From NCBI GenBank assembly GCA_000004985.1, contig GG738898.1: DNA of 64,000 bases, one strand, 5' to 3'. Numbering within the stretch: position 1 is the stretch's first letter; every line of letters starts with the position of its first letter. Positions 1,540 through 43,327 of the stretch are shown one piece after another. The translations under genes and the position numbers were made by a program. A model generated the notes under the pieces. That model did not search any database, was not told where the DNA came from, and saw nothing but the letters and a program-made list of their open reading frames with translations. Origin of the DNA: Naegleria gruberi (lineage: Eukaryota).

Positions 1540-2167
1540 ATGTTTAACAAAACCCATTGTTTACTAGTTACTTTGATATTATTCCTATTGTTTGCTCAAT
1601 CAGCTGTTGCCTTGATTGATCCAAATGATTTGAGTGAAATAAAAGAGACCATAATNTACCCTTTCCAACAGTTCTAACATTACATGTAGTACATGTTCTG
1701 AACAATTACTTCCATTCTTGAATGACATGTGTTGGAAGTATAACACCAATACTAGAGAGCAAATTGTTTCATTCTTGTCTATCTCTATTGATAAAGAACC
1801 TAACCAAAAATTGTTGAATGAGGTAATTGCTAGTGTTGCTCCAACCATTGTTGAACTTAAAACAGCTTCTCAGACTATGGAAGAAAAGAAGACTGATCTA
1901 CTTTCTGGATGGTTATCAACTTATGGATTCTACCCAAAAGGAAATGGTCAACCAATTGAGAGAGTTATTGGGTTTATTGTTACCAACTGGGCTTCACCTT
2001 CAACCACCTTACACATTCTTCTAAATGCCAGAAATATTCGTAATTTACTCAATACTAGACCTGCTTCTTCTGAAGTATTAATGTTTTCATTGATGAATTA
2101 CTTGAATAGTTTGAATAGTCTTGCCTACAGTTCTAAACCAGTTTGTTCTAGATTGGAATGTCATTAA
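1540..2167 (+). CDS. secreted protein of unknown function
   Basis: ATG at 1540 followed by a signal-peptide-like sequence MFNKTHCLLVTLILFLLFAQSAVA. The frame switches at the single ambiguous base N1656 into the long ORF ending at 2167 (…NITCSTCSEQLLPFLNDMCWKY…). This is probably one CDS with a base-call indel at the N. Confidence 0.5.
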
Positions 2168-2511
2168 ATGCGTTTTAACAAATTTGGTATTTAATTAAAT
2201 TGAATTGAACATTACACCTGTCTGAAATTGCTTGTGAAAGTTCTGAATATTCTTATATCTAGAATTGTATTCTCAATTTTTCAGTATTCGATACCTTATT
2301 TAAATTAGATTCTTCCTCACTAAAAACTTTCATATTTCCTCTTTAATATCTTTCAAAGAATCCGAAAGATATCCAAACATCCCTTAACAAGTAAGATTTG
2401 TTGGGCGACGAATTGTATGTAAAGGTGTTGGTTGACCAATAGAAACATCTGTTCCATCCTTGTAGTGATGAAGATTGATTGTCAGCAATTTTGTGGAATG
2501 ATATGTTTTTC

Positions 2512-2561
2512 NNNNNNNNNNNNNNNNNNNNNNNNNNNNNNNNNNNNNNNNNNNNNNNNNN
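2512..2561. other. assembly gap (run of N)
   Basis: Literal N characters. Confidence 1.
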
Positions 2562-2898
2562 CATTCTTTTTTGTAAATTGTCCACGAATTTAGAGAATCC
2601 TGAACAGAAGAACTCTGAAAAAGAAGACAATGCAGAAGAATTTAACAGAACAGAGAAGGAGCAAATAGAGATGGACATGAAGGAAGATTTTGCATATTTT
2701 GGTTACGCTCTTTATGAAGACGATTTTAATGAGTTTCCAATACTGGATAATGATGAAGACGATTCTTTGGAACAATTGGAACAAGCAACAGAGGAAATAT
2801 CTCTCCATTATCACTTACGAAGATTATTAAGGGAGCGTTCTTATGAATGCATTACAAATTACTTTCTGAAATTGTCAAAACCAACAAGTGCTGATTAA
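2562..2898 (+). CDS. acidic (D/E-rich) protein of unknown function, C-terminal part, possible
   Basis: ORF …ENPEQKNSEKEDNAEEFNRTEKEQIEMDMKEDFAYFGYALYEDDFNEFPILDNDEDDSLEQLEQ… ending in TAA. An alternative antisense ORF also exists. Confidence 0.3.
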
Positions 2899-3033
2899 AT
2901 CCACAAATATAGAGCGAGGAGACCATTCAGTAATCTTAATTTATTTTGTAAACCACTCCGCTTTGTTACTCCTCAAAAACTCCCTTCAAAGTCCGTAGAA
3001 GTAACACAAGAAAAAACCAAACAGAAAAAAAAA

Positions 3034-4955
3034 ATGTCAGTAAAAGGATTCTCACCATCATTATCATCGATCACTAACACATTGATGATCATTTTGATGA
3101 TGATTAATTTATTATCAATGGTTCATTCATCATTGTGTGCATCATCATCATCATGGACACAAAAACATGGTGATTTCTACATGTCCAATTCCATTCCTGA
3201 TTTTCCACTTTCCCATTCATCATGGATTAGTATGAATTCTCCGATGCTTACCAAGATGAATTTGAAACTTGATTCTACATCATTGATATTTGCAAATGCA
3301 CCATTGAGTGGTAAATTATTGATGGTTCTTGATGATGATAATCAACAATTGGTGATCGCAAGTATTAATTGTACTAGCGGAGTATTTAATATTGAAAGAA
3401 ATTTGACAAGTGTTTATCCTGGAACGAAGAGAGTTNNNNNNNNNNNNNNNNNNNNNNNNNNNNNNNNNNNNNNNNNNNNNNNNNNNNNNNNNNNNNNNNN
3501 NNNNNNNNNNNNNNNNNNNNNNNNNNNNNNNNNNNNNNNNNNNNNNNNNNNNNNNNNNNNNNNNNNNNNNNNNNNNNNNNNNNNNNNNNNNNNNNNNNNN
3601 NNNNNNNNNNNNNNNNNNNNNNNNNNNNNNNNNNNNNNNNNNNNNNNNNNNNNNNNNNNNNNNNNNNNNNNNNNNNNNNNNNNNNNNNNNNNNNNNNNNN
3701 NNNNNNNNNNNNNNNNNNNNNNNNNNNNNNNNNNNNNNNNNNNNNNNNNNNNNNNNNNNNNNNNNNNNNNNNNNNNNNNNNNNNNNNNNNNNNNNNNNNN
3801 NNNNNNNNNNNNNNNNNNNNNNNNNNNNNNNNNNNNNNNNNNNNNNNNNNNNNNNNNNNNNNNNNNNNNNNNNNNNNNNNNNNNNNNNNNNNNNNNNNNN
3901 NNNNNNNNNNNNNNNNNNNNNNNNNNNNNNNNNNNNNNNNNNNNNNNNNNNNNNNNNNNNNNNNNNNNNNNNNNNNNNNNNNNNNNNNNNNNNNNNNNNN
4001 NNNNNNNNNNNNNNNNNNNNNNNNNNNNNNNNNNNNNNNNNNNNNNNNNNNNNNNNNNNNNNNNNNNNNNNNNNNNNNNNNNNNNNNNNNNNNNNNNNNN
4101 NNNNNNNNNNNNNNNNNNNNNNNNNNNNNNNNNNNNNNNNNNNNNNNNNNNNNNNNNNNNNNNNNNNNNNNNNNNNNNNNNNNNNNNNNNNNNNNNNNNN
4201 NNNNNNNNNNNNNNNNNNNNNNNNNNNNNNNNNNNNNNNNNNNNNNNNNNNNNNNNNNNNNNNNNNNNNNNNNNNNNNNNNNNNNNNNNNNNNNNNNNNN
4301 NNNNNNNNNNNNNNNNNNNNNNNNNNNNNNNNNNNNNNNNNNNNNNNNNNNNNNNNNNNNNNNNNNNNNNNNNNNNNNNNNNNNNNNNNNNNNNNNNNNN
4401 NNNNNNNNNNNNNNNNNNNNACTTTCCAATGATTGTAAGGTGGCTATTATTGATTTGGAAATGGAGACCATTATTGTGGATGGAAAGAGACAAGCCAATG
4501 TTAAAATTGATCGATCCCTAACGGAACAATCTGCAATTGTTACAGTAAGTTTATTTATTTATGCAATACTTAATGTTATGATGAAATTAAAGTATTACGG
4601 AGCTAAAGTTATTAAAATGTGTGATAAAACATTATCAAACACAGTCAATATCACAGATTTGATAAGAAATGAAAATTTAGGACATTTATCACTTGGCAAT
4701 TTTGAGCATTTTGTTTACAATGTTTTGGATGAAAAGGTTTACAGTGGAAAAAAAACTTTAACTGAGACATTTATTTGTAAAATTGAAAGTAATGGTAAAA
4801 TTGTTGGCAAAATTCAAAGACCCAAGTCAAATTTGATAGAAATTGAATTTCCATCAACTCCAAACTATAGACACAAAGCACTAGTGTTGGCACTTGCCTT
4901 ATTTTGTTTTGCAACATCAGGTGGTGGTGGTGTCGTCTTCCCAATGATCATTTAA
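3034..4955 (+). CDS. secreted, probably GPI-anchored Ser-rich protein, interrupted by gap 3436-4420
   Basis: The N-terminus is hydrophobic and signal-like (…LMIILMMINLLSMVHSSLCASSSS). The C-terminus ends …LVLALALFCFATSGGGGVVFPMII*, which looks like a GPI signal. A candidate in-frame 48-nt intron GTAAGT…AAG lies at 4545-4592. Confidence 0.5.
3436..4420. other. assembly gap (run of N)
   Basis: Literal N characters. Confidence 1.
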
Positions 4956-5087
4956 TCAGCTCAACAATTAACTGCCCTTAGGAAATTTTGGAAAGCAACA
5001 AACACATTGAAAATCATTAAATTAATGAAAATCTGTCATGAAAAATTACAAAATGCTTTCCTTACCTTTAATAGAAATTCAAAAAAA

Positions 5088-5666
5088 TTATGTTTTTTTC
5101 CTTTTTGGTGTTGTGTTTCTTGCTGTATCATCAGTATCAGTTTCGTCTCCATCGTCATCTTCTTGATTGTTTAATTCATTTTCCATTTCTGAACTAGTTC
5201 TCTTCTTTAATTCTCCAAATTTATTTGCCATCTCTGTAAAATATGCCTTCCTTATCAAATCATTCAAATCACTGCCTTTATCTGCTGAACTTTCATTTTT
5301 CTTTTCTTTTTTATCTTTTTTTCCCTTCTTTTCCATTTTTAATTTGTCCATGATGGCAGTTTGCTTATTCTTGATGGTTTCACATTTGAGTTCTGACTCT
5401 AATTTACAATATTTAATAAATTCCATCATGTTAGTATCGGAATCAAAAAATTCAGTCATTTTCTTTTTAGAAATTCCCTTGCTTTTAGTTTCGTCCGATT
5501 TGTTAAAAATTGTGGAAAGATAGAAAGCGAGTAGAGGTGTATGTTTTTCTTGATTGTATCCCACTCTCTTGGCTGGAGATTCTTGAATTGTTTGTGGTGT
5601 TGTCGTGCTGATAGGAAGTGGACTATCTTGAGACGAAACTTGACTATTCTTTCTTCTTGGAGGCAT
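5088..5666 (-). CDS. Lys/Glu-rich, probably nuclear, protein of unknown function
   Basis: The ORF starts at the ATG for MPPRRKNSQVSSQDSPLPI… It has KKGKKDKKEKK and DDDGDETDTDD tracts and ends …TPKRKKT*. Confidence 0.5.
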   Translation of the reverse strand: MPPRRKNSQVSSQDSPLPISTTTPQTIQESPAKRVGYNQEKHTPLLAFYLSTIFNKSDETKSKGISKKKMTEFFDSDTNMMEFIKYCKLESELKCETIKNKQTAIMDKLKMEKKGKKDKKEKKNESSADKGSDLNDLIRKAYFTEMANKFGELKKRTSSEMENELNNQEDDDGDETDTDDTARNTTPKRKKT

Positions 5667-6055
5667 TTTTTTTATGGTGGACAAGAGAAAATGGGCTGGA
5701 TGTCAAATTGACATTAACACTTCCGTGAATGCAACTTTTTTGCCATCACCAAGTTGAATAAAGGTGCACACGACTCAATTTCTAGAAATGATTGATGCAA
5801 TTGTTGTTACTTCTTCATACGATTGTAAACATTTTATTAAATTCTCTAATTGAAACCAATAGGATGTTGTGTGTTATTATTGGGAAATGTTAAGGGAACT
5901 TTTCTCATTTTGATGGTTGAGCTTTGAGTTAAATTTTCCATGTGTTAATTCCCATGTGTGTTTATATGTTCCACTGATAAACTGAAAAGTATATTTCTCA
6001 TTTATGGAGAAGGGTTTAGTTTGGAGTTTCTACTCTAAGAAATCAAGAAAGAAAA

Positions 6056-7311: not shown

Positions 7312-9264
7312 ATGTCATCTGCTGAAGTATTTGATGGAGCCATTGGTATTGATTTGGGAACAACTTATTCATGTGTTGGTGTCTATATGGGAGATAATGT
7401 AGAAATCATTCCGAATGATCAAGGTAATAGAACAACACCTTCCTATGTTGCATTCACTGATGAAGAACGTTTAATTGGTGATGCTGCCAAGAATCAAGTT
7501 GCAATGAATCCACACAATACAGTATTTGATGCTAAACGTTTAATTGGTAGAAAGTTTTCCGATTCAACAGTTCAAGATGATATGAAACATTGGCCATTCA
7601 AGGTCATTACAAAGAGTGATGAGAAACCATACATTCAAGTTGAATACAAAGGAGAATCACATGTTTTCACACCAGAACAAATCTCATCCATGGTCTTGAC
7701 TAAAATGAAGGATATTTCAGAACAATATTTGGGTAAACAAGTCAAGAAGGCAGTCATTACAGTTCCTGCCTATTTCAACGACTCACAAAGACAAGCAACC
7801 AAGGATGCTGGTGCAATTGCTGGTTTGGAAGTTTTGAGAATTATCAATGAACCAACAGCTGCTGCCATTGCTTATGGTTTAAACAAGAAGGGTGAAAGAA
7901 ATGTTTTGATTTTCGATTTGGGTGGTGGTACTTTTGATGTTTCAATTTTGAATATTGAGGATGGTGTTTTTGAAGTGAAAGCCACTGCTGGTGATACTCA
8001 CTTGGGAGGAGAAGATTTTGATAACTTGATGGTTCAATTCTGCTGTCAAGAATTTAAGAGAAAGTACAAGAAGGATATTCAAGAAAATCCAAGAGCATTA
8101 AGAAGATTGAGAACTGCCTGTGAAAGAGCCAAGAGAAATTTATCATCAGCTGCCAATGCTTCAATTAATGTTGATTCAATTATGGACGGAATTGATTTGG
8201 ATATTTCAATGACTCGTGCTAAATTTGAACAATTGAATATGGACTTGTTTAAGAAGTGTTTCGAACCAGTCAAGAAGGTTTTACAAGATTCAGGATTGGA
8301 TAAGGCACAAATTGATGATGTTGTTCTTGTTGGTGGTTCAACTCGTATTCCAAAAGTTCAAGAAATGCTCAGAGAATTCTTCAATGGAAAAGAATTGTGC
8401 AGATCAATTAATCCAGATGAAGCTGTAGCTTATGGTGCTGCAGTTCAAGGCGGTGTTTTAACTGGTAAGGAAACCAAAGTCTTATTAATCGATGTTACTC
8501 CACTTTCATTGGGTATAGAAACAGCTGGTGGTGTCATGACCAAATTGATTGAAAGAAATTCAACCATTCCATGTAAGAAATCTGAAATCTTCTCAACCTA
8601 TGCTGATAATCAAACAGCAGTCACTATTCAAGTCTTTGAAGGAGAAAGAACCTTGACAAAGGATAATCACTTGTTGGGAAGATTTAACTTGGAAGGTATT
8701 CCACCAGCACCAAGAGGTGTTCCAAAGATTGAAGTCACATTTGAAATTGATTCTAATGGTATTATGAAAGTTTCTGCCAAGGATACTTCATCTGGTAAGA
8801 CACAAAACATTACCATCAAGAATGAACAAGGACGTTTGAGTAAGGAAGAAATTGAAGAAATGGTCAAGAAGGCCAAGGAAATGGAACAATTTGATAAGGA
8901 ATTGAAAGAAAAGATTGATGCCAAGAATCAATTAGAGGCCTACGCCTATCAAATGAAATCCACTGCTGATGATCCAAACTTGTCTGGTAAATTATCAGAT
9001 GCTGATAAGAATACCATCAAGAAGACATGTGAGGAAGTTATTAATTGGTTAGATAATAATTCTACCTATTCAAAGGATGATATTGAAAAGAGAAGAAAAG
9101 AATTGGAAGGTAAATGTGCACCAATTATTAGCAAGTTGTATCAACAAGGAGCTGGTCAACCAGAATTTACACCAAATGGTGCAAACTTTACCTCAGATAA
9201 TACTTCCAGTAATTCAAGCAACACAACATCAAAGCCAAAGTTTGAAGATGTTGATGTCGATTAA
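7312..9264 (+). CDS. cytosolic Hsp70/Hsc70 chaperone
   Basis: Intron-less 650-aa ORF with [22 protein letters not shown] and [14 protein letters not shown] signatures. The C-terminus is …FEDVDVD rather than EEVD. Confidence 0.95.
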
Positions 9265-9290
9265 ATAAACACTTTTTTTTGAAACCATTA

Positions 9291-9344
9291 TGCAATAATT
9301 CACCAATTTGACACTCTACCAAAATGGGTATACTTTTTGTGATT
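9291..9344. repeat. copy 1 of a ~50-bp segmental repeat, abutting gap 9345-9968
   Basis: CACCAATTTGACACTCTACCAAAATGGGTATACTTTTTGTGATT matches 12141-12184 exactly. Similarity decays further left. Confidence 0.9.
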
Positions 9345-9968
9345 NNNNNNNNNNNNNNNNNNNNNNNNNNNNNNNNNNNNNNNNNNNNNNNNNNNNNNNN
9401 NNNNNNNNNNNNNNNNNNNNNNNNNNNNNNNNNNNNNNNNNNNNNNNNNNNNNNNNNNNNNNNNNNNNNNNNNNNNNNNNNNNNNNNNNNNNNNNNNNNN
9501 NNNNNNNNNNNNNNNNNNNNNNNNNNNNNNNNNNNNNNNNNNNNNNNNNNNNNNNNNNNNNNNNNNNNNNNNNNNNNNNNNNNNNNNNNNNNNNNNNNNN
9601 NNNNNNNNNNNNNNNNNNNNNNNNNNNNNNNNNNNNNNNNNNNNNNNNNNNNNNNNNNNNNNNNNNNNNNNNNNNNNNNNNNNNNNNNNNNNNNNNNNNN
9701 NNNNNNNNNNNNNNNNNNNNNNNNNNNNNNNNNNNNNNNNNNNNNNNNNNNNNNNNNNNNNNNNNNNNNNNNNNNNNNNNNNNNNNNNNNNNNNNNNNNN
9801 NNNNNNNNNNNNNNNNNNNNNNNNNNNNNNNNNNNNNNNNNNNNNNNNNNNNNNNNNNNNNNNNNNNNNNNNNNNNNNNNNNNNNNNNNNNNNNNNNNNN
9901 NNNNNNNNNNNNNNNNNNNNNNNNNNNNNNNNNNNNNNNNNNNNNNNNNNNNNNNNNNNNNNNNNNNN
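9345..9968. other. assembly gap (run of N)
   Basis: Literal N characters. Confidence 1.
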
Positions 9969-10043
9969 ACATTTATCGTGTTCTGATTTCTAGAAAAAAC
10001 GAATGATATTGATTTACTGAAAGATTAATATTATTATCCAATA

Positions 10044-27612: not shown

Positions 27613-28104
27613 TTCTTCCAATAAATTCACATCCTAAACTATTCGAAACCAAACGATTCGCTTCACACTACAATTTTCTAAATTTTGGCGCGTAACCAAT
27701 TCTGGCGCACATGACCATTTTCAACATGTCCATAAAAAAAATTACAACCAAATATTCTTGGAGTTTTGATCCTAACACAATCTTTGAAAAAATAAAGCAA
27801 AAAAGAATATCACACAATATCAGGACAATATTTTCAAAGCCTTCTTTAAATATTATTTAAATATTATTTTCAATAATTGTTGTTATTGTTGTGCTTTACG
27901 GGACAAGCTAATTTATTCTTCTTTGTTATTGGAAATCTTATTGGAGGAAGTGTAACAATCATTGAGAGTAGAGAGCATCATTATATAATTGAAACAAATA
28001 ATAACAATATTGCAATAGCTATTGAACAATAACAACATCAATAGAAGGAGTTTTTAATAATTATAATAATAACAAAAATAGTTTTTTGGGAGGAGGAAAA
28101 CAAA

Positions 28105-29460: not shown

Positions 29461-31249
29461 ATTATTTAAATGTGGAATCTTTTCCTTAAGCAAGTTGTAA
29501 ACCTCTTCATTCTTCATGAACATGGTTGGAAGGTGTAGATAAATATATTTTTCAATATCAGCAGGAGTGTTGTGTTGGAGTGCCTTAACAACAAGTTCTG
29601 AGGTAAGAAAATTGTAAGGAATAATCTTGAAATTAGTTGGTTCAGTAATTGCCAATTTGATAAAATCTGTATCTCTCTTTTGATAAAAGTCTAACCCAAC
29701 ATATAATTTTGGCTGGGCTGTCAATATCTTGATAATATTCTCTTTTGAAGTAAATTTTTCTGGAACATCTATCCATCTATATTGCATATGCTGCAAAGCA
29801 ATTATAACCATCTCAAGAGTTAATATCTCTTCCTTAATCATTGAAAGAATTGAAGGACTACAATTATATCCTTGAGAGAGAGCCGTCATTACTAGATCTG
29901 GAGTTTGGTGCACATATGAAATTGTTGCTGGATTAGTCATCACAAGATGCTGAATCATGTTATCACTCAAGTAAACATCCTTAGGCAGTATTTTCAACAA
30001 CTCTACTCCATATTTGTTATTTGCTAATTTCATTAATACATCCTCGTCCAGAAGTAATGACTTATCAACACAAGAAAGGTCAAGTTTTTGCCCATAAAAA
30101 TTTCTAACTAAACTCAGTAATTCCAATATGAATTGTTTGTTTGATCTCAGTTTAGGACTTATTAAGGGGAATGCCGAAGTGTGTACTTGTAAGAGTAATA
30201 GAGCTTTAGGATAATCATGGCAAAACAAATAAAGTGTTTGATCGGGTATATAATCAAAGTTCGAAAAATAGGTACCTCCTTTTTGGATCATTGAGTTTAA
30301 TGTTGTTGTTAACACTTCAACATCAACTTTCAAAGATTCAGGAAGGGATTTGTAAAGAGAGCCACGATCATGGAATACTAATTTGAGAGCTACCTCCTTA
30401 TCCGATTTCAATCTATCAGAAATAATGTTAAAGAGAATCAAGGTATTGTTATAAGTTATTGATTCCAATATCAAGCTCTTGTCGTCACTAACTTCAAAAG
30501 GCACTGTTGCACTAAAGCTGTAAGTAATATTTTTGAAAGTTGTCAACACAATATCTCTATCCTTCTTGAGTCTTTCCGAGATGAATTCATATTTGCGATA
30601 GGAAGATTTTACAGCACTAAGTGCTATTTCCTTATCGTCTTTGAAGAGGGGTGATATTTTTGATATACACAGTCCATTTTTCACTGCCTCTAAGCAAATA
30701 TCACGATCCTCTTTCAAGTTGTCAGACAGGGACAGATAAGTATTGCATGTCTTTTGAATCATATTCAATGCATATTCTTTGTTCTCTATTATTGACTTGG
30801 GAATGAATTCTACAACAGAAAGAGTAGGCATCTCCTCCATTCTGAACGGCTTGGATCTGATAGTCTCTTGTGCAATTTCTGTTCCTTTCACTCTTTCAGA
30901 ACAAAATCTAACAGTAAGAGGATGCATAAGCAGAATGTCTTTCATAAATATTTCGTCATCTTTGATTTCATCTGAAGCATATTGAATAGCATCTAAATAA
31001 TTTGACACAGCTGCACAAACAATATCTCTATTATTCCTTAGTTCTTTGGAAACATATTTCAATTGACTCCCATTATTCCTTAAATATTTCAACACAAATT
31101 CGGGATCATTCTTCTTTTCTTCAGTTGCGAACCTGATAGGCTCTCGTTTCGGTACAATTTTGAGATTCAACTTTTGTTGTGGTAATAGACTTTTGAACCA
31201 TTTCTTCATGTTACCTAACTTGTTAAATGAATAATTCTCGAATCCCATT
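29452..31249 (-). CDS. DUF4116-repeat protein, partial, N-terminus in gap
   Basis: Repeated units of the type …(D/N)R(D/E)IVL(A/T)AV…AL(Q/K)YAS(D/E)ELK(N/D)D…, e.g. LRNNRDIVCAAVSNYLDAIQYASDEIKDDEIFM and LKEDRDICLEAVKNG. The ORF continues into the N-run. Confidence 0.7.
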
Positions 31250-32795
31250 NNNNNNNNNNNNNNNNNNNNNNNNNNNNNNNNNNNNNNNNNNNNNNNNNNN
31301 NNNNNNNNNNNNNNNNNNNNNNNNNNNNNNNNNNNNNNNNNNNNNNNNNNNNNNNNNNNNNNNNNNNNNNNNNNNNNNNNNNNNNNNNNNNNNNNNNNNN
31401 NNNNNNNNNNNNNNNNNNNNNNNNNNNNNNNNNNNNNNNNNNNNNNNNNNNNNNNNNNNNNNNNNNNNNNNNNNNNNNNNNNNNNNNNNNNNNNNNNNNN
31501 NNNNNNNNNNNNNNNNNNNNNNNNNNNNNNNNNNNNNNNNNNNNNNNNNNNNNNNNNNNNNNNNNNNNNNNNNNNNNNNNNNNNNNNNNNNNNNNNNNNN
31601 NNNNNNNNNNNNNNNNNNNNNNNNNNNNNNNNNNNNNNNNNNNNNNNNNNNNNNNNNNNNNNNNNNNNNNNNNNNNNNNNNNNNNNNNNNNNNNNNNNNN
31701 NNNNNNNNNNNNNNNNNNNNNNNNNNNNNNNNNNNNNNNNNNNNNNNNNNNNNNNNNNNNNNNNNNNNNNNNNNNNNNNNNNNNNNNNNNNNNNNNNNNN
31801 NNNNNNNNNNNNNNNNNNNNNNNNNNNNNNNNNNNNNNNNNNNNNNNNNNNNNNNNNNNNNNNNNNNNNNNNNNNNNNNNNNNNNNNNNNNNNNNNNNNN
31901 NNNNNNNNNNNNNNNNNNNNNNNNNNNNNNNNNNNNNNNNNNNNNNNNNNNNNNNNNNNNNNNNNNNNNNNNNNNNNNNNNNNNNNNNNNNNNNNNNNNN
32001 NNNNNNNNNNNNNNNNNNNNNNNNNNNNNNNNNNNNNNNNNNNNNNNNNNNNNNNNNNNNNNNNNNNNNNNNNNNNNNNNNNNNNNNNNNNNNNNNNNNN
32101 NNNNNNNNNNNNNNNNNNNNNNNNNNNNNNNNNNNNNNNNNNNNNNNNNNNNNNNNNNNNNNNNNNNNNNNNNNNNNNNNNNNNNNNNNNNNNNNNNNNN
32201 NNNNNNNNNNNNNNNNNNNNNNNNNNNNNNNNNNNNNNNNNNNNNNNNNNNNNNNNNNNNNNNNNNNNNNNNNNNNNNNNNNNNNNNNNNNNNNNNNNNN
32301 NNNNNNNNNNNNNNNNNNNNNNNNNNNNNNNNNNNNNNNNNNNNNNNNNNNNNNNNNNNNNNNNNNNNNNNNNNNNNNNNNNNNNNNNNNNNNNNNNNNN
32401 NNNNNNNNNNNNNNNNNNNNNNNNNNNNNNNNNNNNNNNNNNNNNNNNNNNNNNNNNNNNNNNNNNNNNNNNNNNNNNNNNNNNNNNNNNNNNNNNNNNN
32501 NNNNNNNNNNNNNNNNNNNNNNNNNNNNNNNNNNNNNNNNNNNNNNNNNNNNNNNNNNNNNNNNNNNNNNNNNNNNNNNNNNNNNNNNNNNNNNNNNNNN
32601 NNNNNNNNNNNNNNNNNNNNNNNNNNNNNNNNNNNNNNNNNNNNNNNNNNNNNNNNNNNNNNNNNNNNNNNNNNNNNNNNNNNNNNNNNNNNNNNNNNNN
32701 NNNNNNNNNNNNNNNNNNNNNNNNNNNNNNNNNNNNNNNNNNNNNNNNNNNNNNNNNNNNNNNNNNNNNNNNNNNNNNNNNNNNNNNNNNNNNNN
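31250..32795. other. assembly gap (run of N)
   Basis: Literal N characters. Confidence 1.
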
Positions 32796-33464
32796 CTGTT
32801 ACTGTGCTTCACATTTGGTCAAGGTTATTCATTTGGTCAACCAATTAAACCAGGTGCTCAATCAATTGATACACCAGGTAGAGTTACTTGTTCAGATTCA
32901 GTGATTGTTTCGAATTCATTGATTATTATCTATGCTAAGGTAGTAATGATTAAGAAACCAAGAATTGATTCTCTCACCAATGGAGAAAGAGTAGAAAGTG
33001 AAGTTTCCAGAGGATTTGGAAAGTATGCCAATATTGGACCAATTACACCAAACATCTGTGTTACTTTCACTGGTTCAGTTACAAGAAACCCGTTGACTAT
33101 TTACATGCTGCAACAAGAATTCAGCAAGAATAGAGATTATGCTTCTCCTGATTATTACACAACTGCTATCACACTTCCAGTTGGTCATAATGTTGAAGCC
33201 AAATTCTGTACCAATGAAACCTACTTTAACGAAGTTGGTCAGCTCAAACAAGAATTGGATTTTGCCTTCTTGTCAGAAATTCCAGAAACTGTAAGTGAAT
33301 TTGTATTGACTTCTTCCATTAGCACTGGAGGTAATACTGCAGGTACTGTTGTTGGTGTACTTTTTGCTCTTGGTATTGTGTATGTTATTTGTGGTGGTTT
33401 GATCACTGCTGGTATTATCTATTGGAAAAAGAAGAGAGTCAATTATGACACCATCACTGAATAA
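32796..33464 (+). CDS. C-terminal part of a type-I membrane protein
   Basis: The ORF emerges from the gap. It has an ectodomain with Cys and N-glycosylation sites, then a TM helix AGTVVGVLFALGIVYVICGGLITAGIIYW, then a short basic tail KKKRVNYDTITE*. Confidence 0.5.
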   Translation: MLLCFTFGQGYSFGQPIKPGAQSIDTPGRVTCSDSVIVSNSLIIIYAKVVMIKKPRIDSLTNGERVESEVSRGFGKYANIGPITPNICVTFTGSVTRNPLTIYMLQQEFSKNRDYASPDYYTTAITLPVGHNVEAKFCTNETYFNEVGQLKQELDFAFLSEIPETVSEFVLTSSISTGGNTAGTVVGVLFALGIVYVICGGLITAGIIYWKKKRVNYDTITE

Positions 33465-34619
33465 AACCATAAAGAAATTCAAATTAATTGTTATCTTGAT
33501 CATTCCGATAATTTCCACCTCCTTCTCTTACTCATTCAATTTGATATTGAATTCTAAACATGTCCATTATCCAACAGTGTACATTTTCCAATTAGGAAAA
33601 AAATGGTTGTTATTTTAATCGTGGTATAAATAATTTTTTAACTGACAAACAAAACCATCATATAGGAAAAGTCTAGACTAACAATCTAAGGATTGTCTAC
33701 TTGATTGTTGTTGCTATTAAGAGTTAATTCTTGGCCTCTAATAATTCTAATAACTGTAACTGCAGCAAAGGAAGTACAAAAAATTCTCGCAACAAGAATT
33801 TTGGAGACAAAAAAAATTGTGGCTCAGATGGCTCCTCTAAAAGGAACCGGAAAACGTGTTCTTTGCTTCAACAACTTTAAAAAAACTACACAACAACCAC
33901 TACCATCATCATGAATACATCACCACTTCCTCGTACTCCTTGCTCTCCAAGTGATCAATCCCATCATCACTCGAATTGTTCACAAATTTCTAGGACAAAC
34001 ACTTCAATTTTATCTTCCTATCCACACAAAATCTACACAATACAGATTGTGCCTTCCATAAAACCAGAAAAATCAGAGAATAACTCAGAGTCTCTGAATG
34101 GACCTGGATTTTACTTCAAGAAGGTTTGTCCAACGAAATCAACACAAAAGACAATAAGAAATAATTTGAGGGAGAGTATCCAAAGATCAACAGACAAGAT
34201 TACAAAGAAAAGAAAAATGTAGCTACTGTTGTACCCTAAATGTATTTTGAAATTGAAATAAATAAAAGTCATGTATTTTAAATTATTATTGAATAATATT
34301 TATTATGTCAGCAATACTTTCCTCGTTCTGTCAGTCAGATTTCTTCTTGCACTTGGGGTTTGTTTCAACAGCCCAATGAAGCAATGCTTGGTCTAAGAAT
34401 GAAACGATAGTTAAATATCCTTATTTGCCCTCTCCAATTACGACATAATCAGTGTAACTTTTGCCTTTGATAGGGATCAATCAGTTACTCCAATGCAATG
34501 AAAAGGATCTCATCTTCATTCATCAATTGAATCATAATGTTGTTAATGTTAATCAAATCCAGGGTAGAAAAGTTGCTCACATCAGACATATCAAGGACTT
34601 AATTTCATCTTGAATGTAT

Positions 34620-39895: not shown

Positions 39896-41008
39896 TTAAG
39901 CCCATCTTAATAAAACCTCTGCTGCTTTCTTTGTTTCTGGATTCTTTATCTTGCTGAATAGGGATCGAGCTTTTTCTAAATCTTTTGGAACTCCTTCCCC
40001 ACCGTTCAAATAAATAGCTCCAAGATTAAAAAGGGAATTATCATTACCTTGATCGGCTGCTTTTTGTAACCAATAAATAGCTTTGGCTTTGTCTTCTTTA
40101 ACTCCTGTTCCCATATTGTACATGGCCCCCAGGTTATTCTGTGCTGATACATCACCTTTGTTAGCCAGTTGCTCGAGCCAGTTCACATCTGTTGAATAAT
40201 CCTTCTTGCTTATCTCATGTAGAGCTGCAATAGAACCTTGAAAACCTTGACTGGCAGCTTTTTCTAACCATTGAATTCCAATTTGATAATCCTGTTTAAC
40301 CCCAATTCCATTAAAGTACATTATTCCAACATTGTGTTGTGAGTGAACATATCCTCCTTCTGCTGATTTCAAGTACCAATCAAAGGCAGTAAATGGGTTC
40401 TTCTCTACTGCATCCCCTCTTGCATAAAAACCACCCAAGTTATATTGAGCTTTTGCATATCCATTATCAGACGCTTTTTTGAACCAATACAATGCCTTTG
40501 ACTTGTCACCAATCGCAAGATATTGGACCCCAAGATTATTCTGTGCTTTTACGTGGTTTTGATTGGCTGATTTTTCAAAAAACTGCAGTGCTATTTCAAT
40601 ATTTTTAGGCACACCCAAACCTTCCTGGTACAAGTAACCCAAATTAAATTGAGCTTCTGAATTATTTTGTTCAGCCGATTTCTCATACCAATAGACAGCT
40701 TTCTTATAATCAATGTCAACTCCAGTTCCATTTTGATAAGCAGCTCCAAGATTATTCTGTGCTATGGAATCTCCTGTATCAGCTTGTAGTTGAAGTAATT
40801 CAAGAGATGATTTGTTGGGTGATGATTTGAAAAAATTCATAAAGCCTAATCCCTTTGATGAAGCATGAAACGATCTAATGTTTAAATTAGTATTAATATT
40901 ATTATTGATTACAGCAAATGGTAATGAACATTCCGAGAATTTTGTCATCAAAGGCTTTGGTAAAAACTTTGAATTCAACAAGAAGGCTGTCTTTTTGATT
41001 GCTCTCAT
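39896..41008 (-). CDS. Sel1-repeat (SLR/TPR-like) protein
   Basis: 370 aa with about 7 Sel1 units (AQNNLGAAYQNGTGVDIDYKKAVYWYEKSAEQNNSEAQFNLGYLYQEGLGV…). Confidence 0.85.
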   Translation of the reverse strand: MRAIKKTAFLLNSKFLPKPLMTKFSECSLPFAVINNNINTNLNIRSFHASSKGLGFMNFFKSSPNKSSLELLQLQADTGDSIAQNNLGAAYQNGTGVDIDYKKAVYWYEKSAEQNNSEAQFNLGYLYQEGLGVPKNIEIALQFFEKSANQNHVKAQNNLGVQYLAIGDKSKALYWFKKASDNGYAKAQYNLGGFYARGDAVEKNPFTAFDWYLKSAEGGYVHSQHNVGIMYFNGIGVKQDYQIGIQWLEKAASQGFQGSIAALHEISKKDYSTDVNWLEQLANKGDVSAQNNLGAMYNMGTGVKEDKAKAIYWLQKAADQGNDNSLFNLGAIYLNGGEGVPKDLEKARSLFSKIKNPETKKAAEVLLRWA

Positions 41009-41112
41009 TTTTTAACAATATTAATTTATTAAATTGATTGAAAAATTAAAAAAATTATAAAGCTTGCGCGCTTATTTTACTGAACGGATTTTTGAAAATT
41101 AAAATCGAATAG

Positions 41113-41124
41113 TTTGGCGCCAAA
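41113..41124. promoter_or_regulatory. palindromic E2F-type site TTTGGCGCCAAA in a bidirectional intergenic region
   Basis: It is a perfect 12-bp palindrome matching the E2F consensus TTTSSCGC on both strands. It lies between the divergent Sel1 gene (ATG about 41008) and the SAS-6-like gene (ATG 41210). A GCGCGC motif is also at 41067-41072. Confidence 0.4.
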
Positions 41125-41209
41125 TGATTACAGCACTAAAAAACGTTACCATCATCTTTAAAAAAAATACCTCAACACACTATCTTCTCAACCCAACGAC
41201 ACCAATACA

Positions 41210-42076
41210 ATGAATACATCACTCCATACACCAAAGAAGAATAGTCAGTTCTCTGTTGGCTCTCCTCCTCAACCAAATTCTATTCAACAATCATCAATTG
41301 CCTCTGTCGGATCACCTTCAACTTCTGCTTCTCTATTGACTGGCATTGATTTTAAGGCTATTGAGGATATGGATCCATCGTTAGCAGAAGGACATAGAAC
41401 AATCTTTGATAAGGAAATACCAATTGAATTACGTACTCAAGATCAAAATGAGTCTGACAATGATCTAGGAACCCTTGAAGCTATCAGAGTTAAAATCCTC
41501 ATCTTGGAAGGAGAACACGAAGACGAGGCTCATGTAAAGTTGGAACTTACTTCCGAGTCTGATCTTTTCTTCCATTATTCTCACACTGTTGGAAGACAAC
41601 AATTTATTGGCCTGCAACAATCCCAAAAGTTGATGGTTGATTTCCCAAATTATCCAAAAATGTTGAGCAAGATGTTGAATGCTTGTGTCAAGGAACCAGA
41701 AAGTTTCTTATGTATCTTGATTATGGAAAGAGATGGAAAAGGATTGCTTAATTTTGTTCAAAATATGGAATACAAGGTAAGTGTTTGAGAATCATTGAAA
41801 ATTTAACAATGTCAGTTTGTGGAATTACTGAGTTTGGAATTGAGTGAAAGTCCAGAACATGTTATTCGTCAACATATTTCATTCAGATATAACAGTATGA
41901 GGTCAAGAGTTGCTATCCTCAACGCTAGATTGCAAGAAGTTTCCAACATTATTAAGATTAAGAACCCATCCCTGTTGTTGCACTTAAGTCGTGCTGTAAC
42001 AGGAGCCCAAACAAGTCTTTCTGCTCCATCATCCTCCTATTTAAATACTCAACAACCTGTACAAAAGAAGAAATAA
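41210..42076 (+). CDS. SAS-6 N-terminal (XRCC4-superfamily head) domain-like protein, 2 exons
   Basis: Exon 1 is 41210-41776, then a 39-nt GTAAGT…TCAG intron, then exon 2 41816-42076. …DLFFHYSHTVGRQQFIGLQQSQKLMVDFPNYPKMLSKML…FLCILIMERDGKGLLNFVQNMEYK|FVELLSLELSE… resembles the SAS-6 head (DPFFLY…FQSLK…GLLVDF.AFPQKFIDLL). No long coiled coil follows. Confidence 0.5.
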
Positions 42077-42092
42077 ACTAGGGACAATCTTT

Positions 42093-43295
42093 TTATTCGA
42101 TATTTTCCACAAGAGCCATCAATTGTTCACTTGATGAAGGTCTAGCAGCTGGATCCAATTGTAAAGTCATTTGAACAAAGTCCAACAATTCTTCACTGTA
42201 AATATCCTTCAACTCATTACAAATATCACTGACAAAGTTTGGATTCTTGGATAATTCCTCTTTAACATCGGTCATTCTCTGTGAAAGAATTTCTAAAATG
42301 ATAACACCTAGGGACCAAATATCACTCGATGCTGAATAGTCCTGTCCTTTAGCTTGCTCTGGAGACATGTAGCACTCTGTTCCAACTTTGGCATTTTCCA
42401 CAGATTTTACAAAACAACTCAATCCAAAATCTCCAATTCTCAACTCATCTCTCTCATTATCATTGAAGAAAATATTCTCTGGTTTCAAATCTCTGTGAAG
42501 ATAACCTTTCGTATGAATAAAAACTAGAGCAGCAGTCAATTTTCTCAACCAATTCACTACCAGTGTTTGACTGACAAGTGAGGATGCACCATTCTTCTTC
42601 TTGAACCTATCCAAGTACATTCTCAAGTCTCCTCCCTTGCAAAACTCCAAAATAATACAGAGAACATATTCTTGTTTTCCTGCATCACTTTCACTAGCTC
42701 CTACTCCAATAGTATCGGCAATAATTGTCGATTCCTTTTGTTCAACGAAAAAGTCATGAATTGAATTGATATACTCGTGTCTCAATGAATAGAGAGATTT
42801 GATTTCATTAAAGTTCTGATTCAATTCTTGTATGGTTCTCAGCTTGATTCTCTTCATGACATAGAACTTCTTTTCAGTAGAATCCTTCTCAGAAACTATA
42901 TAGGCAGCACCCTGAGCTCCAAGTCCAATACGTTTCTTGATAGCATACTTTTCACTATAGTCAGTTCCCTTACTTTCAATTGCTGTTTCAAGAGTTGATT
43001 TGATTGCTTCCTCTTCTTCGGGTGTCAGTTTGGGATTGGTAATGAGTTTCTGTGGACGCTTTGGTGGTCCAGTTGGTACATTTTCCGTTACACTGTCAAA
43101 TAAGTGTTGCTTTGGTACAAGTGAAGTGGTTTGAATTTGTGAGGAAGGTCTCTTTAAAATATTCGAAATGAAATTGGAGAAACCTCTCTTCTTGACAGTT
43201 GGTTTTGGAATACTGGCGCTCTTCTTTCCTGAATCCTTCATTATTCCTGAAATACTCAACACATCTGAAACTCCATTATCACTACAATTCATCAT
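42093..43295 (-). CDS. Ser/Thr protein kinase
   Basis: 400 aa. It has GAQGAAYIV…VMKRI (VAIK equivalent), HRDLKPENIFF, DFGLS and GTECYMSPE. Confidence 0.85.
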   Translation of the reverse strand: MMNCSDNGVSDVLSISGIMKDSGKKSASIPKPTVKKRGFSNFISNILKRPSSQIQTTSLVPKQHLFDSVTENVPTGPPKRPQKLITNPKLTPEEEEAIKSTLETAIESKGTDYSEKYAIKKRIGLGAQGAAYIVSEKDSTEKKFYVMKRIKLRTIQELNQNFNEIKSLYSLRHEYINSIHDFFVEQKESTIIADTIGVGASESDAGKQEYVLCIILEFCKGGDLRMYLDRFKKKNGASSLVSQTLVVNWLRKLTAALVFIHTKGYLHRDLKPENIFFNDNERDELRIGDFGLSCFVKSVENAKVGTECYMSPEQAKGQDYSASSDIWSLGVIILEILSQRMTDVKEELSKNPNFVSDICNELKDIYSEELLDFVQMTLQLDPAARPSSSEQLMALVENIE

Positions 43296-43327
43296 TAATA
43301 AATATTTTGAAAATATTGTAATAATAC

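What the first reader, a model, noticed from the sequence alone, without database searches (positions are those of the whole stretch)
41008..42076. SAS-6-head-like protein without the coiled-coil, driven from a bidirectional region carrying a palindromic E2F site
The protein matches the SAS-6 N-terminal head in several blocks (DLFFHY…LMVDFPNYPKML…). It ends about 100 aa later with no long coiled-coil, so it is not a canonical cartwheel protein. It may instead be an XRCC4/XLF-like head-domain protein or a SAS-6 remnant. The perfect palindrome TTTGGCGCCAAA at 41113-41124 matches the E2F consensus. E2F sites classically control centriole-duplication and DNA-repair genes.
Basis: partly seen in the sequence, partly recalled or inferred. 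Interest (0 to 1): 0.5.

Follow-up and report, generated by a model that had tools for sequence, protein, structure and literature searches.

The report
Naegleria SAS6-like (SAS6L) protein gene
This is the Naegleria gruberi copy of SAS6L, an already described short relative of the centriole protein SAS-6 that forms linear arrays on microtubule structures; the gene is ordinary, but its promoter carries an E2F-type DNA motif whose core is kept in related species, which is a modest new lead.

Summary
The window is Naegleria gruberi. A two-exon gene (41210-41776, 41816-42076; 39-nt intron) encodes 275 aa (not 277). It has a SAS-6_N head (Pfam E 4e-40), then about 77 residues holding one short helix, and no long coiled coil.

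It is not an XRCC4/XLF protein or a SAS-6 remnant. It is an orthologue of SAS6L, a family described in 2013. It matches Toxoplasma SAS6L (PDB 9Y9Z) at E 2e-67, against 1e-11 for SAS-6 heads. In 9Y9Z, SAS6L homodimers form linear arrays on conoid fibres. The residue aligned with the SAS-6 head-to-head knob, Y188, is invariant. The deposited N. gruberi model (192 aa) reads into the intron and is truncated.

TTTGGCGCCAAA sits at 41113-41124 and is unique in the window. N. gruberi encodes E2F, DEL and RB. A block CGCC-N7/8-TACAG lies in the SAS6L promoters of four Naegleria-clade species, and Willaertia has TTTGGCGC at -47. So a conserved E2F-like element is likely. E2F binding is untested, and the head-to-head gene arrangement is not conserved.

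Verdict: a known family, with a modest regulatory lead.

The parts
41009..41209 (.). 201-bp intergenic region (27% GC) between the divergent start codons of the Sel1-repeat gene (minus strand) and SAS6L (plus strand)
41113..41124 (.). Perfect 12-bp palindrome TTTGGCGCCAAA, which is two overlapping inverted E2F-consensus sites. It lies 97-86 bp upstream of the SAS6L ATG
   Evidence: It is unique in the window. TTTSSCGC gives 5 matches against 1.2 expected.
41118..41133 (+). Conserved promoter block CGCC-N7-TACAG (CGCCAAATGATTACAG). It is the half of the palindrome kept in orthologous SAS6L promoters, followed by a possible initiator-like TACAG
   Evidence: The same block with N7/8 spacing lies on the coding strand in N. 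fowleri, N. lovaniensis and an environmental Naegleria-like contig. There is only one other occurrence in 120 kb, both strands.
41066..41071 (.). Second GC box (GCGCGC, within CTTGCGCGCTTA) in the same AT-rich intergenic region. Its significance is unknown
41210..41776 (+). SAS6L exon 1 (residues 1-189): a low-complexity N-terminus (1-45) and most of the SAS-6_N head
41777..41815 (+). 39-nt intron, GTAAGT...CAG, with an in-frame TGA. It is absent from the N. fowleri, N. lovaniensis and environmental orthologues
   Evidence: Splicing restores the invariant MEYK|FVELLS motif.
41816..42076 (+). SAS6L exon 2 (residues 190-275 plus the stop): the last head strand, the short C-terminal helix, the KxKNPSLL motif and a basic tail. 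It is missing from the deposited 192-aa model XP_002672320.1
41402..41842 (+). SAS-6_N head domain (residues 65-198), interrupted by the intron
   Evidence: Pfam PF16531, E 4.3e-40. Coordinates.
41771..41773 (+). Tyr188, which aligns with Phe145 of Chlamydomonas SAS-6 (the head-to-head 'knob'). It is invariant in 29 SAS6L sequences
   Evidence: In the alignment, the 6zzc chain differs from 6zz8 at this position, with E in place of F.
41855..41962 (+). C-terminal helix (about residues 203-238) with a 3/4 hydrophobic spacing over about 4 heptads. It is inferred to be a short dimerising coiled coil, and is followed by the invariant P240 and L242-L243
   Evidence: AlphaFold model of the N. lovaniensis orthologue: helix 213-248, pLDDT about 90. 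Hydrophobic pattern. Invariant columns.

Best explanation
The gene is the Naegleria gruberi orthologue (NAEGRDRAFT_72547) of SAS6L, the SAS-6-like family. The product is a 275-aa structural protein made of a SAS-6-type head plus a helix of about 36 residues, with no cartwheel-spoke coiled coil.

Shown: it belongs to the family by sequence and by fold. The residue aligned with the SAS-6 head-to-head knob (Y188) is conserved. The C-terminal helix has a heptad-like pattern.

Inferred from the Toxoplasma conoid-fibre structure: two chains pair through the short helix, and the dimers join head to head. Without long spokes they form straight arrays that lie along microtubule-based structures, rather than nine-fold rings. 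In Naegleria the most likely site is the flagellar apparatus that is built de novo during the amoeba-to-flagellate change. The basal plate and transition zone are candidates, as in Trypanosoma. The canonical SAS-6 encoded elsewhere in the genome builds the cartwheel.

Transcription probably starts close to a conserved promoter block, (T/A)(T/A)TGGCG(C/G) followed 7-8 bp later by TACAG. In N. gruberi this block is a perfect palindromic E2F-type site. The likeliest reader of the block is the E2F/DP/DEL system that the genome encodes. That step is inference only.
For: Organism and gene: the exon 1 ORF is 100% identical to N. gruberi XP_002672320.1, NAEGRDRAFT_72547.

Family: Pfam SAS-6_N at E 4e-40. 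Phmmer against the PDB gives T. gondii SAS6L (9y9z) at E 2.3e-67 over residues 38-250, against 1.6e-11 for the best SAS-6 head. The top 120 database homologues are 192-338 aa, and nearly all carry PF16531 as their only recorded Pfam domain. They come from heteroloboseans, alveolates, ciliates, green algae, haptophytes and oomycetes. The spliced product aligns end to end with 28 of them, with 31 invariant columns including Y188-K189-F190 across the splice junction. The AlphaFold model of the N. lovaniensis orthologue (77% identical to the N. gruberi product; core pLDDT above 90) is closest to the seven 9y9z SAS6L chains: E 8e-25 to 1e-17, TM-score 0.80-0.89 normalised to the target. SAS-6 heads follow at about E 1e-13.

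Mechanism: in 9Y9Z, SAS6L homodimers form linear arrays along conoid fibres, with SAS-6-like interfaces (PMC12819142). Overexpressed SAS6L forms filaments, and T. brucei SAS6L sits at the axoneme basal plate (PMC3697468). Naegleria has a separate canonical SAS-6 (PMC4819266).

Promoter: the palindrome is unique in the window. TTTSGCGS occurs in 3 of 6 heterolobosean SAS6L promoters, which 5 of 20,000 simulations reach. In the Willaertia locus (6.9 kb) and the environmental locus (4.8 kb) it is the only copy. N. fowleri has CTTGGCGCCATT at -34, the only GGCGCC in 8.8 kb. CGCC-N7/8-TACAG is found in all four Naegleria-clade promoters and once elsewhere in 120 kb. N. gruberi E2F exists, with E2F_TDP and CC-MB domains and the RRIYD motif. 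DEL and RB are also listed.
Against: No expression, localisation or assembly data for the Naegleria protein could be obtained, so the site of action is extrapolated from Toxoplasma and Trypanosoma.

The strict E2F consensus is met only in N. gruberi and Willaertia. N. fowleri and N. lovaniensis keep only AATGGCG(C/G). Acrasis and a second environmental relative have nothing. The relaxed motif and the CGCC-TACAG block were defined after seeing the data. The attempted positive control was equivocal. The Willaertia E2F gene has its only TTTGGCGC at its own 5' end, but the N. lovaniensis E2F locus has none. The other two motif sites in the window are not next to obvious S-phase or flagellar genes, and a Rad51-like gene has none.
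Confidence: 0.85

Rival explanations
1. The protein is an XRCC4/XLF/PAXX-type DNA-repair scaffold: a head domain plus a short stalk that bridges DNA ends, rather than a cytoskeletal SAS-6 relative.
For: The general shape is the same: a beta-sandwich head followed by one helix that could dimerise. From established knowledge, SAS-6 and XRCC4 heads belong to one structural superfamily.
Against: No XRCC4 or XLF Pfam hit even at E<=1. No such protein appears among the 29 PDB sequence hits or the top 50 Foldseek hits, which are all SAS6L or SAS-6. The protein is about 60% identical to T. gondii SAS6L, which was seen bound to tubulin fibres.
Confidence: 0.01
2. The gene is a decaying remnant or truncated pseudogene of the cartwheel protein SAS-6 that has lost its coiled coil.
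For: It has the head only, and the public gene model is even shorter, at 192 aa.
Against: The length and domain layout match orthologues across eukaryotic supergroups. Mean column identity is 41%, and the invariant motifs reach into the last exon. It scores far higher against SAS6L than against any SAS-6. Naegleria keeps a separate functional SAS-6. The short public model is an annotation error caused by a missed intron.
Confidence: 0.01
3. The GC-rich promoter element is real and conserved, but it is read by a factor other than E2F, or is simply part of the core promoter or start-site architecture. Its fit to the E2F consensus in N. gruberi is then coincidental.
For: Only CGCCA(W)3 and TACAG are shared by all four Naegleria promoters. 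The T-tract that E2F prefers is replaced by AAT in N. fowleri and N. lovaniensis. Basal-body genes in Naegleria are induced by differentiation, not in S phase. The regulators of cilia genes in Naegleria are unknown (PMC12183034). The N. lovaniensis E2F locus lacks the motif.
Against: The N. gruberi site is a perfect double E2F consensus. The Willaertia site (TTTGGCGC) and the environmental site (TTTTGGCGGGAG) also fit E2F-family sites. The genome encodes E2F with an intact DNA-recognition motif. Willaertia has the same octamer at the 5' end of its own E2F gene.
Confidence: 0.3
4. The palindrome is a chance occurrence with no regulatory role.
For: It was picked out after reading the sequence. 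About 30 perfect 12-bp palindromes of any kind are expected in 64 kb of this composition (own estimate). Acrasis and one environmental relative lack any such motif.
Against: This exact 12-mer is expected about 0.002 times in the window (own estimate from base composition). Related GC cores recur at the same place, with the same spacing to TACAG, in otherwise unalignable promoters of four species. Three or more of six promoters carry TTTSGCGS in only 5 of 20,000 simulations.
Confidence: 0.1

Closest known systems
Toxoplasma gondii SAS6L (TGME49_301420; PDB 9Y9Z conoid fibre)
   Same: Same family and same layout: a short variable N-terminus, the SAS-6_N head, one short helix and the KxKNPSLL motif. 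Phmmer gives E 2.3e-67 over 213 residues. The model of the N. lovaniensis orthologue superposes at TM-score 0.80-0.89 normalised to the target. The MEYKF knob motif is identical.
   Different: Naegleria has no conoid, so the host structure must be different, presumably flagellar. The N-terminal 45 residues are unrelated. The N. gruberi gene has an intron.
Trypanosoma brucei SAS6L (axoneme basal plate; de Leon et al. 2013, PMC3697468)
   Same: It is a member of the same family in another discoban flagellate. It provides the most plausible model for localisation, at the distal transition zone where the central pair starts.
   Different: No direct sequence comparison with the T. brucei protein was made here. 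Localisation in Naegleria is untested.
Canonical SAS-6 (Chlamydomonas Bld12p, zebrafish, Leishmania and C. elegans SAS-6)
   Same: The head fold is shared (Foldseek about E 1e-13, 14-24% identity). A hydrophobic residue (Y188) aligns with the F145 knob. A helix follows the head.
   Different: SAS-6 has about 300 residues of coiled coil that form the nine cartwheel spokes. Here the helix is about 36 residues. The sequence score is 48 bits, against 230 for SAS6L. SAS6L forms straight arrays rather than rings.
XRCC4 / XLF / PAXX / CCDC61 head-and-stalk proteins
   Same: The general architecture of head plus dimerising stalk (established knowledge).
   Different: No detectable sequence match, and none among the top structural matches.
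Palindromic E2F sites of animal promoters (for example the overlapping inverted sites TTTCGCGCCAAA at the DHFR start site; recalled from the literature, not checked here)
   Same: A 12-bp inverted pair of TTTSSCGC half-sites. It lies close to what may be the transcription start (TACAG 7 bp downstream).
   Different: No evidence of binding, of cell-cycle regulation or of the start site in Naegleria. Only one half-site is conserved between species.

Membership tests
SAS6L (SAS-6-like) family | Contains the conserved domain of about 200 aa shared with the SAS-6 head (now Pfam PF16531 SAS-6_N) | tested here: met
   PF16531 at E 4.3e-40, residues 65-198, covering the full profile 2-135 of 135.
SAS6L (SAS-6-like) family | Groups with SAS6L proteins rather than with SAS-6 | tested here: met
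   230.5 bits (E 2.3e-67) to T. gondii SAS6L, against 47.7 bits to the best SAS-6. Foldseek ranks the seven SAS6L chains first. No formal tree was built.
SAS6L (SAS-6-like) family | [quoted passage not shown] | tested here: met
   275 aa in total. Only about 77 residues follow the head, with one helix of about 36 residues. The listed homologues are 192-338 aa.
SAS6L (SAS-6-like) family | Occurs alongside a canonical SAS-6 in an organism that builds basal bodies | not tested
   Taken from the literature only: the Naegleria genome encodes SAS-6, and antibodies place it at basal bodies (PMC4819266).
SAS6L (SAS-6-like) family | Self-assembles into filaments or linear arrays, and localises to a microtubule-based structure (conoid fibres, basal plate) | not testable with these tools
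   Only indirect support. The residue aligned with the knob (Y188) is invariant, and the helix has a heptad-like pattern.
Canonical SAS-6 (cartwheel protein) | N-terminal head domain with a hydrophobic knob for head-to-head contacts | tested here: met
Canonical SAS-6 (cartwheel protein) | Long (about 300 aa) coiled coil forming the cartwheel spokes | tested here: not met
   The protein ends 77 residues after the head. It is therefore not filed as SAS-6.
XRCC4/XLF family | Sequence or fold match to XRCC4, XLF or PAXX heads | tested here: not met
   No Pfam hit at E<=1 other than SAS-6_N. None in the PDB sequence hits or the Foldseek top 50.
E2F-regulated promoter | A site matching TTTSSCGC close to the start of the gene | tested here: met
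   TTTGGCGCCAAA at 41113-41124, 86-97 bp upstream of the ATG.
E2F-regulated promoter | The organism encodes E2F/DP-type factors with an intact DNA-binding domain | tested here: met
   N. gruberi E2F (P0124) carries PF02319 and PF16421 and contains RRIYDITNVLEG. DEL and RB are listed in the supplement of PMC4862756.
E2F-regulated promoter | The site is conserved in orthologous promoters | tested here: inconclusive
   The strict consensus is met in 2 of 7 species and TTTSGCGS in 3 of 7. The core TGGCG(C/G) with fixed spacing to TACAG is met in 4 of 4 Naegleria-clade species. It is absent in Acrasis and in one environmental relative.
E2F-regulated promoter | The motif is enriched genome-wide upstream of S-phase (or co-regulated) genes, and the factor binds the site | not testable with these tools
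   No access to the whole N. gruberi genome or to binding data. The only control, the E2F gene's own promoter, was positive in Willaertia and negative in N. lovaniensis.

The most novel reading that the evidence does not exclude
The conserved E2F-type element upstream of SAS6L could mean that the E2F/DP/DEL-RB system helps to switch on (or hold off) flagellar-apparatus genes in Naegleria and its relatives during the amoeba-to-flagellate change. In that change basal bodies form de novo, outside the cell cycle. This would parallel E2F4/5-MCIDAS control of de novo centriole amplification in vertebrate multiciliated cells. It would also name a first candidate regulator for cilia genes in an organism that lacks RFX, FOXJ1 and XAP5 (PMC12183034).
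Probability: 0.15. Interest if true: 0.55.

Novelty: already known. Interest (0 to 1): 0.22.

Why it matters
The gene adds little new. SAS6L has been a described family since 2013, an atomic structure in its native assembly was published in 2025, and the Naegleria protein is a plain orthologue. Three small points are useful.

1. The public N. gruberi model (XP_002672320.1, 192 aa) misses an intron. It lacks the last 86 residues, including the helix that probably makes the dimer. It should be corrected before anyone uses it for antibodies, proteomics or phylogeny.

2. Naegleria builds its whole flagellar apparatus from nothing in about an hour. It has no conoid. It is therefore a clean system in which to ask what SAS6L does in an ordinary flagellate.

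3. The conserved E2F-like promoter block is a concrete, testable lead into how flagellar genes are switched on in Naegleria. Their regulators are unknown.

Tried and rejected
I modelled the N. lovaniensis orthologue instead.
- Global MAFFT alignment of the five proximal promoters was uninformative, because the distance to the ATG differs. I anchored on the motif instead.
- Expression data for NAEGRDRAFT_72547 could not be found. Fritz-Laylin and Cande 2010 and Kennard 2025 are not held. The preprint has no supplement text. No paper mentions the gene's identifiers.
- The N. gruberi E2F locus is not on record, so the autoregulation control used only N. lovaniensis and Willaertia, and the result was equivocal.
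- PDB sequence searches of the unknown 451-aa protein and of the RNA-ligase-like protein next to the 27684 motif gave nothing.
- A search for tandem repeats in the window found none.
- A 2026 preprint on the trypanosome basal plate does not mention SAS6L.
- The XRCC4/XLF and SAS-6-remnant readings were considered and rejected.
Full report
**What is in the sequence**

The window is AT-rich eukaryotic DNA, about 33% GC. Between a Sel1-repeat gene on the minus strand (39896-41008; seven Sel1 repeats) and a protein-kinase ORF on the minus strand (42093-43295) lies a plus-strand gene. Its first ORF runs from ATG 41210 and reads 'MEYK' before a GTAAGT. Removing 41777-41815 (39 nt, GTAAGT...CAG, with an in-frame TGA) joins it in frame to 41816-42076. 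The product is 275 aa.

**Organism and gene model**

The exon 1 ORF is 100% identical to a 192-aa 'predicted protein' of Naegleria gruberi (XP_002672320.1, NAEGRDRAFT_72547, UniProt D2VU61). That public model reads into the intron and stops there. The spliced product aligns end to end with 28 homologues. The junction restores the invariant motif Y188-K189-F190..L193-L194, and exon 2 carries further invariant positions: R213, Y214, N215, K236, K238, P240, L242 and L243. The spliced 275-aa model is therefore right, and the deposited one is truncated. The orthologues in N. fowleri, N. lovaniensis and an environmental Naegleria-like contig are intronless; their gene length equals three times the residue count plus the stop codon.

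**What the protein is**

- Pfam gives one hit, SAS-6_N (PF16531), at E 4.3e-40 over residues 65-198. Nothing else appears even at E<=1.
- Against all PDB sequences the best match is 9y9z, a 263-residue 'SAS6 N-terminal domain-containing protein', at E 2.3e-67 over residues 38-250. True SAS-6 heads from Chlamydomonas, zebrafish, Leishmania and C. elegans reach only 1.6e-11 or weaker.
- 9Y9Z is the cryo-EM model of the Toxoplasma conoid fibre, and the matching chain is SAS6L, TGME49_301420 (PMC12819142).
- The 120 best database homologues are all short (192-338 aa). Nearly all carry PF16531 as their only recorded Pfam domain. They come from heteroloboseans, alveolates, ciliates, green algae, haptophytes and oomycetes.
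- An AlphaFold model of the N. lovaniensis orthologue (77% identical to the N. gruberi product) shows a beta-rich head, then a 36-residue helix and a 13-residue helix. Mean pLDDT is 77.9 and the core is above 90.
- Foldseek against the PDB ranks seven 9y9z SAS6L chains first (E 8e-25 to 1e-17, TM-score 0.80-0.89 normalised to the target). SAS-6 heads follow at about E 1e-13. No XRCC4 or XLF entry appears in the top 50.

The protein is therefore a member of the SAS-6-like (SAS6L) family defined by de Leon et al. 2013 (PMC3697468): the SAS-6 head without the coiled-coil tail, found in diverse protists and lost in Holozoa. It is not a remnant. The family is more conserved than SAS-6 itself: about 50% identity between supergroups, against the 24% average across SAS-6 and SAS6L quoted. 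Naegleria also has a canonical SAS-6 at its basal bodies (PMC4819266).

**How it most likely works**

Shown here:
- Family membership.
- The residue that aligns with Phe145 of Chlamydomonas SAS-6 is Tyr188. In the alignment, the 6zzc chain carries E at this position where 6zz8 has F. From the SAS-6 literature, recalled and not checked here, F145 is the knob that makes head-to-head contacts. Tyr188 is invariant in 29 SAS6L sequences.
- Residues of about 203-238 form a helix with hydrophobic residues spaced 4,4,3,4,3,4,3,4 (I206, I210, Y214, M217, V221, L224, L228, V231, I235). That is about four heptads.

Inferred from the Toxoplasma structure and cell biology:
- Two chains pair through the short helix.
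- The dimers join head to head and form straight arrays along a microtubule-based structure. This also explains the filaments seen on overexpression.
- In Trypanosoma the protein sits at the axoneme basal plate.
- Naegleria has no conoid, and it builds basal bodies, flagella, rootlet and cortical microtubules de novo during differentiation. The flagellar apparatus is therefore the likely site.

I found no Naegleria expression or localisation data.

**The E2F-like palindrome**

TTTGGCGCCAAA at 41113-41124 is unique in the window. The consensus TTTSSCGC occurs 5 times against 1.2 expected; 0 of 100 shuffles reach 5, and the palindrome counts twice. The other sites are 27684, 59233 (TTTGGCGCCAAT) and 59285. 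All lie outside the long open reading frames.

N. gruberi does encode the factor. The supplement of Medina et al. 2016 lists NgruE2F, NgruDEL and NgruRB. A database search with that E2F sequence returns a 100% identical N. gruberi protein with E2F_TDP and CC-MB domains, plus orthologues in N. lovaniensis, N. fowleri, Willaertia and Acrasis.

I then fetched the SAS6L loci of six relatives:

| Species or contig | Site upstream of SAS6L | Position |
|---|---|---|
| Willaertia magna | TTTTGGCGCTAAAA | -47 |
| Environmental Naegleria-like contig | TTTTGGCGGGAG (minus strand) | -39 |
| N. fowleri | CTTGGCGCCATT | -34 |
| N. lovaniensis | AACCGCCATTTTT (degenerate) | about -35 (L001 3969; ATG at 4001) |
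| Acrasis, and a second environmental relative | none | n/a |

In the Willaertia locus (6.9 kb), the environmental locus (4.8 kb) and the N. fowleri locus (8.8 kb), the SAS6L-promoter copy is the only copy of the motif or of GGCGCC. Three or more of six promoters carrying TTTSGCGS arose in 5 of 20,000 first-order Markov simulations. That motif variant was chosen after seeing the data.

Anchoring on the motif shows a block CGCC-N7/8-TACAG on the coding strand in all four Naegleria-clade promoters. There is one other occurrence in 120 kb, both strands. So a conserved cis-element exists and belongs to SAS6L. The upstream neighbour differs between species: Sel1 in N. gruberi, a WHD/AAA gene in N. 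lovaniensis, a rubrerythrin-like gene in Willaertia. The 'bidirectional' aspect is therefore specific to N. gruberi.

Only the half-site reading GCGCCAAA on the coding strand is conserved. The perfect palindrome is a feature of N. gruberi alone. That E2F reads the element is inference. As a control I examined the promoters of the E2F genes themselves. In Willaertia the only TTTGGCGC in 7.4 kb sits at the 5' end of the E2F gene model. N. lovaniensis has none, and the N. gruberi locus could not be retrieved. The result is equivocal.

A review notes that the regulators of cilia genes in Naegleria are unknown, and that RFX, FOXJ1 and XAP5 are absent (PMC12183034). The same review describes E2F4/5-MCIDAS driving centriole amplification in vertebrate multiciliated cells. 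That is the basis for the more novel reading, to which I give about 15%.

**Comparison and novelty**

The closest known protein is T. gondii SAS6L, and the T. brucei orthologue is the best model for location. The protein passes every membership test for SAS6L that could be run. It fails the defining coiled-coil test for SAS-6, and it shows no link to XRCC4/XLF. The family, its distribution and its assembly mode are published, and the Naegleria protein is already in the databases. The finding is therefore 'already known'. What is new is minor: a corrected gene model, a lineage-specific intron, and a conserved E2F-like promoter block.

**Verdict**

Interest is low (0.22), and most of that rests on the promoter lead.

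Noticed in passing
window 41210-42076; public model XP_002672320.1 / D2VU61: The deposited N. gruberi gene model is 192 aa. It reads through the GTAAGT donor into the intron and stops. The conserved last 86 residues (exon 2) are missing from the public protein.
   Followed up: yes
window 41777-41815; L001 4001-4840, L008 4001-4849, L002 1854-2678: The 39-nt intron is present only in N. gruberi. The N. lovaniensis, N. fowleri and environmental orthologues are uninterrupted ORFs, so this is a recent intron gain or loss within the genus.
   Followed up: partly
window 42093-45136, minus strand: The G-alpha ORFs (44057-45136 and 43328-43990) and the protein-kinase ORF (42093-43295) appear to be one gene. 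The G-alpha 'stop' TAA lies inside a GTAAGT donor. A 50-nt intron (43331-43282) joins ...KILL to NDNGVSDV in the kinase frame. The N. fowleri (1067 aa) and N. lovaniensis (836 aa) models also combine G-alpha and Pkinase in one product. This heterotrimeric-G-alpha/kinase fusion may deserve its own look.
   Followed up: partly
window 27684-27691, 59233-59244, 59285-59292: Other E2F-consensus sites, all outside long ORFs. TTTGGCGC lies 72 bp after an RNA-ligase-like gene and 420 bp before an unknown 451-aa gene. TTTGGCGCCAAT and TTTCCCGC (minus strand) lie 250-300 bp upstream of an AMP-binding-enzyme gene (ATG at 58983, minus strand). None of these neighbours is an obvious S-phase or flagellar gene.
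   Followed up: partly
L011 3046-3053 (Willaertia magna E2F locus); L010 (N. lovaniensis E2F locus): The only TTTGGCGC in 7.4 kb around the Willaertia E2F gene sits at the 5' end of the gene model. It is followed 9 bp later by another ATG, so the annotated start may be wrong. This would fit E2F autoregulation. The N. lovaniensis E2F locus has no such site.
   Followed up: partly
window 41066-41071: A second GC island (CTTGCGCGCTTA) lies in the otherwise 27%-GC SAS6L/Sel1 intergenic region. It is one mismatch from TTTSSCGC. Its conservation was not examined.
   Followed up: no
window 2001-6000, 8001-10000, 30001-34000: Stretches of very low GC (21-25%). Long overlapping ORFs lie on both strands at 31223-33464 and 3034-4521, with no Pfam match. 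They look like low-complexity coding or non-coding sequence rather than ordinary genes.
   Followed up: no
window 48031-49047, minus strand: A Rad51/RecA-like paralogue (Pfam Rad51, E 1e-10) with no E2F-like motif upstream. This is a small negative data point for the idea that the motif marks DNA-repair genes here.
   Followed up: no
L004 4100-6053 (Willaertia) and L010 4254-6375 (N. lovaniensis): A SAM-PAS-PB1 domain gene lies next to SAS6L in Willaertia, and a similar one lies next to E2F in N. lovaniensis. SAS6L and E2F are on the same contig in both species, about 60-90 kb apart. This may be rearranged synteny or paralogues.
   Followed up: no
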